Shown piece after piece: positions 44,734 to 46,321 of a DNA stretch of 64,000 nucleotides. This stretch comes from a virus. Location: the IMG/VR virus record IMGVR_UViG_3300046167_000921, positions 113,494 to 177,493 of that record; one strand, given 5' to 3'. The position numbers and the translations under genes were made by a program. Numbering within the stretch: the first letter of the stretch is position 1; each line of letters opens with the position of its first letter. Below the pieces are notes generated by a model, which had not been told where the DNA came from, did no database searches, and saw only the letters and a program-made list of their open reading frames with translations.

Positions 44734-44806
44734 GGGCCTATAGCTCAGTGGTTAGAGCTCCCGACTCATAATCGGTAGGTCTCAGGTTCAAATCCTGATG
44801 GGCCCA
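44734..44806 (+). tRNA. tRNA with CAT anticodon, probably Ile2 (lysidine type)
   Basis: GGGCCTA/TGGGCCC acceptor, GCTC/GAGC D stem, CTCATAA loop, TTCAAAT T loop. C4-G69 and C5-G68 are the TilS determinants and A73 is present. Elongator Met not excluded. CCA not encoded. Confidence 0.88.
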
Positions 44807-45034
44807 TTAGCACGCACCTCCTCACGGAGGGTCAAAAAAGAGATGACACTGCACGGAAGCATTCTTGTAGGGGGTTCGAATCCTCCGCCTCAGGGTGGCC
44901 AGAAGACTTCGGTTAGGTTTGGTCGCAGGTTTACTGAAGACTTTAAGCTCTCTCAGAGATAGTTGTATCTTAGGGTTCGATCCCCTTTCCATCATCGGTG
45001 GGTTTTGGTACGGTACAGTGAAGTGTGCTTTTAA

Positions 45035-45106
45035 GCACTCGTAGCTCAGCGGAAGAGCAGTGGCCTTCTAAGCCATTGGTCGCAGGTTCGAATCCTGCCG
45101 AGTGTA
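45035..45106 (+). tRNA. tRNA-Arg(TCT)
   Basis: Full cloverleaf: GCACTCG/CGAGTGT, GTGGC CTTCTAA GCCAT, GCAGG TTCGAAT CCTGC. Confidence 0.95.
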
Positions 45107-45157
45107 CTAGGTCGCATTGGGGAAACCTACCCCTACTCTATGAGTGGGGCAATAAAC

Positions 45158-45230
45158 GCATTCATAGCTCAGTCGGAAGAGCACCACTTTCCTAAAGTGG
45201 GGGTCACAGGTTCGAGCCCTGTTGAGTGCA
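45158..45230 (+). tRNA. tRNA-Arg(CCT)
   Basis: GCATTCA/TGAGTGC, CCACT TTCCTAA AGTGG, ACAGG TTCGAGC CCTGT. Confidence 0.93.
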
Positions 45231-45306
45231 TTAGGCTCACCCTTTTATCTTTTTACCTTTATATAGGGGGGGTAGATAGGTTGTTGGGCGAGGGTGGGTC
45301 TAAGGT

Positions 45307-45349
45307 AAAAAGGCTGGTTTTCTTATTGAGAGAGCCAGCCTTTTTTTTT
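45307..45349 (+). terminator. Rho-independent terminator (possibly bidirectional)
   Basis: AAAAAGGCTGGTTTTCT / AGAGAGCCAGCCTTTTT stem followed by a T9 run. Confidence 0.85.
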
Positions 45350-45420
45350 ATTTTTTCTCCTCCTTACTTGGTAGAGTGCTATTTGTGTAGGGCGTTCCTA
45401 CACATTACACACACAGGAGA

Positions 45421-45633
45421 ATGGTAATGGGAGACAGCGTAAGAAACGGTTATGAGATTAGGGAATCTCTCTTGGAAATGGCGATCAACATTCTACAAGA
45501 GAGGGTGAGCCAAGAGCGTGAGAATGAGTACCTTAAGCCAGAAGGTACTCGTCAACCCGTTCAAGGCTTTGACGTTAATGATGTTATCAAGGTTGCTCAC
45601 ACGCTTGACTCTTTTGTCAGTCGAAAAAATTAA
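45421..45633 (+). CDS. Small phage hypothetical protein
   Basis: NGYEIRESLLEMA...DVIKVAHTLDSFV, AGGAG SD. Confidence 0.7.
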   Translation: MVMGDSVRNGYEIRESLLEMAINILQERVSQERENEYLKPEGTRQPVQGFDVNDVIKVAHTLDSFVSRKN

Positions 45634-45679
45634 GTGATAATAATTTGCGTGACCACTCTTCATATAGATAATAAGAGAT

Positions 45680-45832
45680 GGGCGTATAGCTTAGTTTGAC
45701 AGGTGACTGTGATACAGTTTATCTGAGAGCACTGTTAAGTCGGTACTACCGATTAGGTTAAAGTCTGACCAATACTAGTCAGGGTCAGGTCACTTTCCGC
45801 AGGAGGGTCGGGTTTAAACCCCGATACGCTTT
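45680..45832 (+). ncRNA. 153-nt tRNA-framed RNA with hairpin insertions in the D loop and anticodon loop
   Basis: Acceptor GGGCGTA/TACGCTT, TA at positions 8-9, D stem GCTT/GAGC, anticodon stem CTGT/GCAG, 5-nt variable loop, T arm TCGGG TTTAAAC CCCGA. Lies immediately before tRNA-Glu. Confidence 0.65.
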
Positions 45833-45839
45833 CTAATAA

Positions 45840-45911
45840 GGTCCCATCGTCTAGGGGTTAGGACATCGGCCTTTCACGCCGAGAACGCGGGTTCAAATCC
45901 CGCTGGGATCA
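45840..45911 (+). tRNA. tRNA-Glu(TTC)
   Basis: GGTCCCA/TGGGATC, TCGGC CTTTCAC GCCGA, GCGGG TTCAAAT CCCGC. Confidence 0.95.
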
Positions 45912-46023
45912 CTATGTGTGCCTTCACGCAGGCTTGTTGCAACAGGTAAGTCAAGGTTTAGACCTTGACAGGGGCTGGTGGTTGATACACCTTTCCATTG
46001 AAACAAAGAATTAAGGTGTCTTA

Positions 46024-46096
46024 GGGTCGTTAGCTCAATTGGTAGAGCAGTAGACTTTTAATCTATTGGTTCTGGGTTCGAGTCCCAGACGACCCA
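46024..46096 (+). tRNA. tRNA-Lys(TTT)
   Basis: GGGTCGT/ACGACCC, GTAGA CTTTTAA TCTAT, CTGGG TTCGAGT CCCAG. Confidence 0.95.
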
Positions 46097-46101
46097 CTCT
46101 T

Positions 46102-46131
46102 AAAGAGTCTCTTCGGAGGCTCTTTTTTTTT
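46102..46131 (+). terminator. Rho-independent terminator ending the tRNA cluster
   Basis: AAAGAGTCTC-TTCG-GAGGCTCTTT followed by a T run. Confidence 0.9.
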
Positions 46132-46321
46132 ATTTGTGGGCATCCTCACCTTGAAAGCTCTCGGGCTAAAGGAGCTTCGGGACATCTTTAAGGTCTCTAC
46201 CGATGAAGCAAAACAGGCTAACACTTCGAACCTTGAGAAAAGAGGCAAGAGTGCTTCGTAGGATGACCTGAAGTGGTTGGTATTATGGTATGTCTATTTT
46301 AAACAAGAAGGAGTCAACGCC

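What the first reader, a model, noticed from the sequence alone, without database searches (positions are those of the whole stretch)
45680..45832. tRNA-framed 153-nt RNA with ornate hairpin insertions and a possible conformational switch
Seen: acceptor, D, anticodon and T stems are in canonical order with a 5-nt variable loop. The D loop carries an 11-bp hairpin (45700-45725). The anticodon loop is replaced by 63 nt (45736-45798) containing hairpins AGTCGGT/ACCGATT and CTGACC/GGTCAG, with an alternative partner GTCAG at 45778. AGGTGAC (45701-07) can alternatively pair with GTCACTT (45789-95), linking the two inserts. The T loop is TTTAAAC and the acceptor starts with two G-U pairs. It sits 7 nt before tRNA-Glu. 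Inference: it is either a doubly intron-containing tRNA, or a non-decoding tRNA mimic (for example a decoy for anticodon nucleases, or a Y/YrlA-like RNA). No anticodon can be assigned.
Basis: partly seen in the sequence, partly recalled or inferred. Interest (0 to 1): 0.75.

Follow-up and report, generated by a model that had tools for sequence, protein, structure and literature searches.

The report
Non-decoding tRNA-shaped RNA gene of phage
A marine giant phage carries, inside its tRNA gene cluster, a conserved 153-base RNA gene built on a tRNA frame. It has an extra hairpin in the D-loop and a long arm where the anticodon should be, so it is kept by selection but cannot read codons, like the long-known and still unexplained "tRNA-like stable RNAs" of phages T4 and T5.

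Summary
Window 45680-45832 is a tRNA cloverleaf frame: a 7-bp acceptor stem, a D stem, a T arm, a 5-nt variable loop and discriminator U. It carries a 26-nt hairpin in the D-loop and about 62 nt in place of the anticodon loop.

I found homologues in four further metagenome lineages: L197/L198, L017/L199, L018 and a partial copy in L202. The element is 91-93% conserved. That matches the neighbouring true tRNAs and exceeds the adjacent protein gene (79%).

On the alignment 99.5% of pair cells stay paired. Five pairs show compensatory double changes: three in the acceptor stem, one in the D-loop hairpin and one in the long arm. A GATAAT -10 box 6-7 nt upstream, U at -1 and a CUAAU trailer are conserved. 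A true tRNA always follows within 6-8 nt.

It is not a decoding or intron-bearing tRNA, not tmRNA and not a Y RNA. The proposed conformational switch and the alternative partner at 45778 get no comparative support.

The best reading is a trans-acting, non-decoding tRNA-like stable RNA matured by the tRNA-processing machinery. Its function is unknown. The closest known RNAs are T5 RNA1/RNA2 and T4 RNA C, with no sequence homology to them. This scan has noted the same kind of RNA before in other phages. It is a new family of a known kind, of moderate interest.

The parts
45667..45672 (+). GATAAT -10-type promoter box, 7 nt upstream of base 1 of the RNA
   Evidence: Invariant in all five lineages while the surrounding upstream sequence is only 56-78% identical. 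The spacing to G1 is 6-7 nt, and the base at -1 is always T. Promoter activity itself is inferred.
45614..45641 (+). Second sigma-70-like promoter match (TTGTCA-16-GATAAT) inside the end of the small ORF. It would give a leader of about 30 nt.
   Evidence: 10 of 12 consensus matches. Only seen in the window/L197 lineage. Not evidence of function.
45680..45832 (+). The tRNA-shaped RNA gene (153 nt including discriminator U)
45680..45686 (+). Acceptor stem, 5' strand. It pairs with 45825-45831, and G1-U72 is conserved.
   Evidence: 7 of 7 pairs in all full copies. Three pairs show changes on both sides in L017: G-C to C-G, C-G to G-C, G-C to A-U.
45689..45730 (+). D arm: stem 45689-92/45727-30, with loop residues A14, R15 and G18 kept
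   Evidence: The stem is kept, with one G-U to A-U change. It aligns to the D arms of true tRNAs.
45700..45725 (+). Hairpin inserted in the D-loop (11 bp, one bulged U, loop GAU)
   Evidence: 98% of cells paired. An A-U to G-C double change in L202 fixes the register at alignment columns 27/39. There are three one-sided compatible changes and one break in L017.
45732..45735 (+). Base of the former anticodon stem (CUGU, pairs with GCAG 45799-45802)
   Evidence: Predicted independently by RNAalifold. It is invariant, so there is no covariation test. The rival local hairpin 45792-45808 loses a C-G pair in 2 of 3 lineages.
45739..45753 (+). Optional side hairpin (GUCGGU-ACU-ACCGAU)
   Evidence: Present in the window, L197 and L017, where a 3-nt insertion lengthens the stem. 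Deleted in L018.
45756..45798 (+). Long arm: GG/CC, AAAGU/ACUUU, CUGACC/GGUCAG, with the invariant 12-nt apical loop AAUACUAGUCAG (45771-45782) that contains the palindrome ACUAGU
   Evidence: RNAalifold consensus. There is a U-A to C-G double change at columns 90/111 in two lineages. The loop and linkers are 100% conserved except for one G/C.
45808..45824 (+). T arm (UCGGG-UUUAAAC-CCCGA)
   Evidence: The stem is kept, with one U-A to U-G change. Loop positions 54, 55 and 58-60 are invariant. Position 56 is U, C or A and position 57 is A or G.
45833..45839 (+). Spacer to the next tRNA, with a conserved CUAAU
   Evidence: Conserved whether the next gene is tRNA-Glu (window, L018) or tRNA-Lys (L017).
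45840..46135 (+). Co-oriented tRNA-Glu (45840-45912), a 111-nt spacer, tRNA-Lys (46024-46097) and an intrinsic terminator (46102-46135). This is the presumed rest of the transcription unit.
   Evidence: No terminator-like site lies between the element and 46102.

Best explanation
This is a gene for a non-decoding, tRNA-derived small RNA. It is a member of the loosely defined class of phage 'tRNA-like stable RNAs'.

Shown here:
- It keeps the acceptor stem, D stem, T arm and most elbow residues of a tRNA.
- It carries a hairpin in the D-loop and a long arm of about 17 bp with an invariant 12-nt loop in place of the anticodon stem-loop.
- These helices are maintained by compensatory substitutions.
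- It evolves as slowly as the neighbouring true tRNAs.
- It travels as a unit (own -10 box, RNA, CUAAU trailer) placed directly in front of a true tRNA.

Inferred:
1. It is transcribed from the GATAAT promoter at or next to G1, together with the downstream tRNA(s).
2. RNase P cleavage at the 5' end of the next tRNA releases it.
3. Its 3' trailer is trimmed and CCA is added by the host enzymes, as must happen for the phage's own tRNAs, none of which encode CCA.
4. The tRNA body therefore serves as a chassis that gives processing, stability and recognition by tRNA-binding proteins.
5. The sequence-invariant long arm and its loop are the working part, binding a protein or an RNA in trans.

What it binds is not known.
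For: - Frame: read directly. The element's own model R1 aligns all true tRNAs end to end.
- Homologues: L017/L199, L018, L197/L198 and partial L202.
- Structure: 99.5% of cells paired and 5 pairs with both-side changes. Only 1-2 of 500 shuffles reach these values, and slid controls reach at most 46% paired. RNAalifold recovers the same cloverleaf and long arm independently.
- Selection: the element is 91-93% identical between lineages. tRNA-Glu is 80-99%, tRNA-Lys 89-95%, the small ORF 79% and the upstream 60 nt 56-78%.
- Non-decoding: no call by ARAGORN, with or without intron search. No Rfam match even at E<=10. No 7-nt loop in the consensus fold.
- Unit structure: GATAAT, U at -1 and CUAAU are conserved, and a tRNA follows within 6-8 nt in three different gene orders.
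- Precedent: T4 rnaC/rnaD and T5 RNA1/RNA2 are annotated stable or tRNA-like RNAs inside tRNA clusters. The roles of RNA C and RNA D are stated to be unknown (PMC3014915).
Against: - There are no expression or end-mapping data.
- Only four full lineages and one partial copy are available, all fairly close, so covariation rests on few events.
- The anticodon-stem base and the GG/CC and AAAGU/ACUUU helices are invariant and therefore untested.
- Elbow pair 19:56 is not maintained (A19 against U, C or A at position 56), so recognition by enzymes that read the elbow is uncertain.
- A complete 312-kb relative lacks the element, so it is dispensable for this phage group.
- The trans-acting role and any partner are pure inference.
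Confidence: 0.7

Rival explanations
1. It is a cis-acting leader module. The tRNA-shaped 5' unit exists to help expression, processing or stability of the tRNA(s) that follow, for example by protecting the 5' end of the primary transcript or by recruiting RNase P or RNase E. It has no function once cut off.
For: It is always the first unit behind its own -10 box. It is always followed within 6-8 nt by a true tRNA, with a conserved CUAAU spacer.
Against: The downstream tRNA differs (Glu or Lys), so no specific pairing with it is possible. A mere leader does not explain the 100% conservation of a 12-nt apical loop and of the single-stranded linkers, nor the compensatory maintenance of a long arm. 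Other tRNAs of the same cluster do without it.
Confidence: 0.15
2. It is a decaying pseudo-tRNA that has picked up insertions and has no function.
For: Phage tRNA clusters here do contain debris. There is a 63-nt truncated tRNA-Thr in L024/L025/L027. T-arm-like remnants lie between tRNA-Met and tRNA-Arg. A complete relative lacks the element.
Against: There are five compensatory double changes, six compatible single changes and one break. Conservation equals that of true tRNAs and exceeds that of the flanking coding and intergenic DNA. The inserted parts are the most conserved parts. The unit is retained with its promoter in three gene orders.
Confidence: 0.05
3. It is a functional tRNA gene with two introns that are removed to give a decoding tRNA of about 75 nt.
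For: The stems are in canonical order, and real tRNAs align to the frame with both inserts looped out.
Against: - No spliced version passes ARAGORN at its default threshold. At a relaxed threshold the anticodon is arbitrary.
- The L018 deletion removes the 5' junction and part of the stem.
- Inserts of 26 and 62 nt have no group I core, and there is no ribozyme or intron match.
- By established knowledge, bacteria have no bulge-helix-bulge splicing endonuclease.
- The inserts, not the putative exon junctions, carry the invariant sequence.
Confidence: 0.03
4. It is a Y-RNA/YrlA-like partner of a Ro (Rsr) protein, or a tmRNA-like ribosome-rescue RNA.
For: Both kinds contain tRNA-like modules, and some jumbo phages encode Ro/TROVE proteins (PMC7824862).
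Against: - No YrlA model match on the element.
- No TROVE domain in this contig or in the complete 312-kb relative.
- In YrlA the RNA ends lie in the Ro-binding stem, not in the acceptor stem (my own knowledge).
- ARAGORN's tmRNA search gives nothing credible here. Its default run calls only the five tRNAs, and a run at a 70% threshold listed four low-confidence 'tmRNA' calls in the 2-kb region that I did not place.
- Pair 3:70 is G-C or C-G, not G-U, and there is no tag reading frame.
Confidence: 0.02

Closest known systems
Phage T5 RNA1 (T5s03, 144 nt) and RNA2 (T5s06, 125 nt), annotated 'tRNA-like stable RNA with unknown functions'
   Same: They lie inside a phage tRNA gene cluster next to true tRNAs. 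They have an acceptor stem and T arm at the ends, a D arm, and a long folded arm where the anticodon stem-loop should be (fold). Their function is unknown.
   Different: There is no detectable homology: model R1 finds only the true tRNAs of the T5 region at E<=0.1. T5 RNA1 uses a class II (long variable arm) frame and has no hairpin in the D-loop in the T5 sequence I folded. The T5 T-loops are canonical (UUCAACU, UUCGAAU). The host and phage groups are unrelated.
Phage T4 RNA C (species 1, rnaC, 139 nt) and RNA D (species 2, rnaD, 119 nt)
   Same: They are stable small RNAs encoded at the end of the T4 tRNA cluster. The 3' 92 nt of RNA C form a tRNA-like frame: acceptor CGGAACG/CGUUUCG and T arm CCGGG-UUCGAAU-CCCGG (sequence; R1 14 bits; weak tRNA-Sec model match). 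Their biological roles are unknown (PMC3014915).
   Different: There is no sequence homology. RNA C has a 46-nt 5' extension and different inner hairpins. RNA D is not obviously tRNA-like. Neither has a curated Rfam family.
tmRNA tRNA-like domain
   Same: An acceptor stem and T arm frame a large non-tRNA insert. The RNA is processed like a tRNA.
   Different: The element has no G3-U70 and no tag ORF or pseudoknots. Its D stem is present. ARAGORN at default settings does not call it, and the low-threshold tmRNA calls were not placed. At 153 nt it is much smaller.
YrlA / bacterial Y RNAs
   Same: They are non-decoding RNAs with a tRNA-mimicking module.
   Different: The topology is permuted: YrlA ends lie in the Ro-binding stem. 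There is no model match and no Ro gene.
Engineered 'tRNA scaffold' for recombinant RNA (my own knowledge: the Ponchon and Dardel design)
   Same: It works alike in principle. An insert placed in the anticodon arm of a tRNA body is processed and stabilised by the cell's tRNA machinery.
   Different: It is man-made. The comparison concerns mechanism only, not ancestry.

Membership tests
Decoding tRNA (Rfam RF00005) | Cloverleaf with a 7-bp acceptor stem, D stem, T arm and variable loop in canonical order | tested here: met
Decoding tRNA (Rfam RF00005) | 5-bp anticodon stem closing a 7-nt loop with an assignable anticodon | tested here: not met
   The consensus fold has a 4-bp stem running into a long arm with a 12-nt loop. 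No anticodon is called.
Decoding tRNA (Rfam RF00005) | Reaches the detection thresholds of tRNA finders | tested here: not met
   ARAGORN gives no call at default settings, with intron search or at an 80% threshold. Rfam gives no match at the gathering score or at E<=10.
Decoding tRNA (Rfam RF00005) | Canonical elbow: G18-psi55, G19-C56, T54-A58 | tested here: inconclusive
   G18, T54, T55 and A58 are invariant. Position 19 is A, and position 56 is U, C or A in different lineages, so 19:56 is not maintained.
Intron-containing tRNA (group I intron or bulge-helix-bulge intron) | Removing the inserts yields a canonical tRNA | tested here: not met
   0 of 13,312 spliced versions pass ARAGORN at its default threshold.
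Intron-containing tRNA (group I intron or bulge-helix-bulge intron) | An intron core or ribozyme is recognisable, and the splice junctions are conserved | tested here: not met
   No Rfam intron or ribozyme match in the element. The L018 deletion removes the 5' junction.
tmRNA | G3-U70 alanine identity pair, tag reading frame and a tmRNA finder call | tested here: not met
   Pair 3:70 is G-C or C-G. ARAGORN's default tRNA/tmRNA run calls only the five tRNAs. A run at a 70% threshold tallied four low-confidence 'tmRNA' calls in the 2-kb region that I did not place.
YrlA / Y RNA | Match to the YrlA covariance model | tested here: not met
   There is only a 21-bit sub-threshold match elsewhere (45077-45183). 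Nothing matches on the element.
YrlA / Y RNA | A Ro/Rsr (TROVE) protein is encoded by the same genome | tested here: inconclusive
   No TROVE match in G000 or in the complete relative G001, but G000 is only about 57% complete.
Phage tRNA-like stable RNAs (T5 RNA1/RNA2, T4 RNA C): a descriptive class, not a homology family | Encoded within a phage tRNA gene cluster, co-oriented with tRNAs | tested here: met
Phage tRNA-like stable RNAs (T5 RNA1/RNA2, T4 RNA C): a descriptive class, not a homology family | The tRNA-like ends (acceptor stem plus T arm) enclose a non-tRNA folded insert; length about 105-145 nt | tested here: met
   At 153 nt this one is slightly longer.
Phage tRNA-like stable RNAs (T5 RNA1/RNA2, T4 RNA C): a descriptive class, not a homology family | Accumulates as a discrete, stable, processed RNA in infected cells | not testable with these tools
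The host is unknown.
Phage tRNA-like stable RNAs (T5 RNA1/RNA2, T4 RNA C): a descriptive class, not a homology family | Sequence or profile homology to the T4 or T5 RNAs | tested here: not met
   R1 gives 14 bits on T4 rnaC, due to the tRNA frame only. It gives nothing on T5 RNA1/RNA2.

The most novel reading that the evidence does not exclude
The RNA is a trans-acting tRNA-chassis effector. Its tRNA body lets it be handled, and perhaps bound, by host tRNA-recognising proteins. The invariant long arm with the palindromic ACUAGU loop either captures a specific host factor or pairs loop to loop. The factor could be a tRNA-targeting defence nuclease or toxin that reads the acceptor/T-arm half, or a tRNA-modifying or processing enzyme. 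Loop-to-loop pairing would give dimers or a target RNA complex. On this reading the RNA is a phage counter-defence or takeover RNA, and so would be the whole unexplained T4/T5-type class.
Probability: 0.2. Interest if true: 0.8.

Novelty: new variant of a known kind. Interest (0 to 1): 0.5.

Why it matters
tRNA-shaped RNAs that cannot decode have been known in the tRNA clusters of T4 and T5 for about fifty years without a function. This element shows the same design in an unrelated, uncultured marine giant phage: a tRNA body kept by selection, with the decoding arm replaced by a conserved module. Here the design is backed by compensatory evolution, its own promoter and cassette-like presence or absence among close relatives. 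That argues the class is widespread and functional rather than debris.

It offers a compact 153-nt test object with a natural deletion variant (L018) and a clearly delimited candidate working part: the long arm and its 12-nt loop. On its own it does not reveal the function, and the host is unknown.

Tried and rejected
- More homologues by exact-word scans of IMG/VR. Six patterns taken from the element gave only chance matches or true tRNAs, checked by blastn and by model R1. A seventh, taken from the L002 element, hit only its own phage.
- One scan of prokaryote genomes gave a single chance hit in a Chryseobacterium MAG.
- R1 found no copy in four large related phage records, three of them 95-100% complete by CheckV's estimate.
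- First alignments of the window with L002 and with L018:866-1100 were meaningless. The true L018 copy lies 630 nt further downstream.
- Ancestry from tRNA-Arg(CCU): an 8-mer CACUUUCC is shared with its anticodon arm, and it is the best R1 hit. However, collapsed versions of the element are 58-64% identical to all five tRNAs alike, so no parent tRNA can be named.
- A tRNA-Cys reading (GCA in a 17-nt local hairpin plus U73) was rejected. It leaves no variable loop, and that hairpin loses a C-G pair in two lineages.
- Repeats: the inserts are not repeated elsewhere in the 177-kb contig, so they are not a multicopy mobile element.
- Pfam and PHROGs give nothing for the conserved small ORF next to the element.
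- The TROVE/Ro search was negative.

Full report
WHERE IT LIES

The window is the last 64 kb of a 177,493-bp IMG/VR virus contig, estimated 57% complete. Its closest complete relative is a 312-kb phage with terminal repeats (G001). Related contigs come from marine and estuarine metagenomes.

The region is a tRNA cluster, in this order:
- tRNA-Met at 44734
- tRNA-Arg(UCU) at 45035
- tRNA-Arg(CCU) at 45158
- a terminator at 45307-45355
- a 70-aa ORF at 45421-45633
- the element at 45680-45832
- tRNA-Glu at 45840
- a 111-nt spacer
- tRNA-Lys at 46024
- a terminator at 46102-46135

None of the five tRNAs encodes CCA.

THE OBSERVATION

- a 7-bp acceptor stem whose first two pairs are G-U
- a D stem GCUU/GAGC
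- an 11-bp hairpin with one bulge inside the D-loop
- a short stem CUGU/GCAG at the anticodon position enclosing about 62 nt
- a 5-nt variable loop
- a T arm with loop UUUAAAC
- discriminator U
- 7 nt to tRNA-Glu

Standard finders do not call it. ARAGORN is negative with and without intron search and at an 80% threshold. Rfam is negative at the gathering score and at E<=10.

The single-sequence fold is moderately better than shuffles (z = -2.5).

The frame is not a chance look-alike. A covariance model built from the element and its homologues (R1) aligns every true tRNA tested end to end at 17-33 bits. In those alignments the two inserts loop out to 0 and 8 nt.

HOMOLOGUES

Searching around relatives of the neighbouring small ORF and running blastn and R1 on the loci fetched gave true homologues:
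- L197 and L198. The phage is nearly identical, and the element differs by one base, at T-loop position 56.
- L017, which is the same contig as L200, and L199. Identity is 91% over the aligned bases (89% in the BLAST match), with a 3-nt insertion in the first inner hairpin.
- L018. Identity is 93%, and the first inner hairpin is precisely deleted.
- L202. This is a fourth lineage. Only the first 48 nt are present before the contig ends.

Gene order differs between them. The element precedes tRNA-Glu in the window and in L018. It precedes tRNA-Lys in L017, where it lies upstream of the small ORF.

In every case three things travel with it: a GATAAT box 6-7 nt upstream with T at -1, a CUAAU trailer, and a true tRNA 6-8 nt downstream.

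SELECTION

Between lineages the element is 91-93% identical. For comparison:
- tRNA-Glu: 80-99%
- tRNA-Lys: 89-95%
- the small ORF at the DNA level: 79%
- the 60 nt upstream: 56-78%

STRUCTURE

I tested the cloverleaf-plus-inserts structure on the five-row alignment A7.
- 99.5% of 205 pair cells are standard pairs. Slid controls reach at most 46%.
- Five pairs changed on both sides. Three are in the acceptor stem, one is in the D-loop hairpin (A-U to G-C in L202, which also fixes the register), and one is in the long arm (U-A to C-G in two lineages).
- Six pairs changed compatibly on one side, and one pair broke.
- Only 1-2 of 500 shuffles reach the observed values. With so few and related sequences this is supportive, not a probability.

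RNAalifold, given no structure, returns the same acceptor stem, D stem, D-loop hairpin and T arm. It continues the short anticodon-position stem through GG/CC and AAAGU/ACUUU into CYGACC/GGUCRG.

So the decoding arm is replaced by one arm of about 17 bp, capped by a 12-nt loop AAUACUAGUCA(G/C). The first inner hairpin is an optional branch, absent in L018.

The loop and the linkers are invariant while the stems vary by compensation. This points to sequence-specific use of the arm.

- The partner GUCAG at 45778 loses pairs in both diverged lineages.
- The helix 45701-07/45789-95 remains mostly pairable, but it has no covariation and one break. The same substitution improves the D-loop hairpin.
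- The local hairpin that the single-sequence fold prefers (45792-45808) loses a C-G pair in two lineages.

A conformational switch is therefore not supported, though it is not excluded.

WHAT IT IS NOT

1. A decoding tRNA. There is no 7-nt loop. T-loop position 56 drifts (U, C, A) against A19.
2. An intron-bearing tRNA. None of 13,312 spliced variants passes ARAGORN's default threshold, and at a relaxed threshold the anticodon is arbitrary. The L018 deletion removes the 5' junction. No intron or ribozyme model matches.
3. tmRNA. Pair 3:70 is G-C or C-G, there is no tag frame, and ARAGORN at default settings does not call it. A 70%-threshold run tallied four weak tmRNA calls in the 2-kb region that I did not place.
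4. A Y RNA. There is no YrlA match. There is no TROVE gene in this contig or in the complete relative.
5. A multicopy mobile repeat. There are no other copies in the contig.
6. A pseudogene. See the selection evidence above.

WHAT IT IS LIKE

T4 encodes RNA C (139 nt) and RNA D (119 nt) directly after tRNA-Arg. The 3' two-thirds of RNA C are a tRNA-like frame. A T4 review states that the roles of RNA C and RNA D are unknown (PMC3014915).

T5's record annotates RNA1 (144 nt) and RNA2 (125 nt) in its tRNA cluster as 'tRNA-like stable RNA with unknown functions'. Their folds show tRNA ends, a D arm and an over-long arm at the anticodon position.

None of these is homologous to the present element, and none has an Rfam family.

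Notes from this scan report the same kind of RNA in several other phages. I used them as leads to the T5 annotation, which I checked myself.

MECHANISM

Shown: a tRNA frame, inserts kept by selection, its own -10 box, and a position directly 5' of a tRNA.

Inferred:
1. Transcription starts at or next to G1.
2. RNase P cutting at the next tRNA releases the element.
3. The 3' end is trimmed and CCA is added, as for the phage's tRNAs.
4. The tRNA body gives stability and access to tRNA-binding proteins.
5. The invariant long arm binds a partner.

A purely cis-acting leader role is the main rival.

The element is accessory. The complete relative G001 lacks it. At the same spot G001 carries an unrelated 117-nt sequence framed by a perfect acceptor stem and a T arm (L002:3209-3325). 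L017 lacks that sequence precisely. This suggests cassette-like turnover of such RNAs in the cluster.

VERDICT

This is a real, conserved, non-decoding tRNA-shaped RNA gene. It is a new family and a structural variant (D-loop hairpin plus long arm) of a known but unexplained kind. Interest is moderate. Its function cannot be derived from sequence.

Noticed in passing
L002:3209-3325 (the same sequence is in L003 and L019): At the same place as the element (after the small ORF, before tRNA-Glu), the complete 312-kb relative carries an unrelated 117-nt sequence. It is framed by a perfect 7-bp acceptor stem ATAAGTG/CACTTAT and a T arm GCAGG-TTTTAAC-CCTGC. L017 lacks exactly this stretch. Only one lineage is known, the fold is not better than shuffles, and R1 gives 9 bits.
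   Followed up: partly
L002:2786-2841: A minihelix-like tRNA remnant: acceptor ACACTTG, 10 nt, T arm GCAGG-TTCGAGT-CCTGT, then acceptor CAAGTGT. It follows a strongly folded 75-nt hairpin (z = -3.7 for 2721-2843).
   Followed up: no
window 45421-45633: A 70-aa ORF with no Pfam or PHROG match is conserved (46-97% identity) in more than 60 marine phage contigs. In most of those with enough downstream sequence a tRNA gene follows within about 30-210 nt, and its identity varies (Glu, Val, Tyr, Leu, Thr, Lys, Gly, Asn).
   Followed up: partly
window 45231-45306: The 76 nt directly after tRNA-Arg(CCU) fold into one long hairpin much more stable than shuffles (-30.1 kcal/mol, z = -4.3). It lies just before the intrinsic terminator at 45307-45355.
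   Followed up: no
window 44862-44895 and 44970-45000: Two canonical-looking T-arm motifs (GGGGG-TTCGAAT-CCTCC and AGGG-TTCGATC-CCCT) lie in the 228-nt gap between tRNA-Met and tRNA-Arg(UCU). No matching acceptor stem is present. They are probably tRNA debris or further odd tRNA-like RNAs. They are not conserved in the loci held.
   Followed up: partly
window 45913-46023: A 111-nt spacer between tRNA-Glu and tRNA-Lys contains a perfect 8-bp hairpin (GTCAAGGT/ACCTTGAC) and a weak promoter-like site. In L018 the two tRNAs are only 3 nt apart, so this is an insertion in the window lineage.
   Followed up: no
L199:3476-4693: The L017-type phage carries a 405-aa GIY-YIG endonuclease gene in its tRNA cluster just after tRNA-Glu. 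This recalls SegB in the T4 tRNA cluster and HNH HegC in the T5 cluster, and it fits the high turnover of these clusters.
   Followed up: no
L024, L025, L027 (+88..+150 after the small ORF): A 63-nt truncated tRNA-Thr keeps its acceptor stem and T arm but has lost 9 nt relative to the intact gene in L031-L034. ARAGORN does not call it.
   Followed up: no
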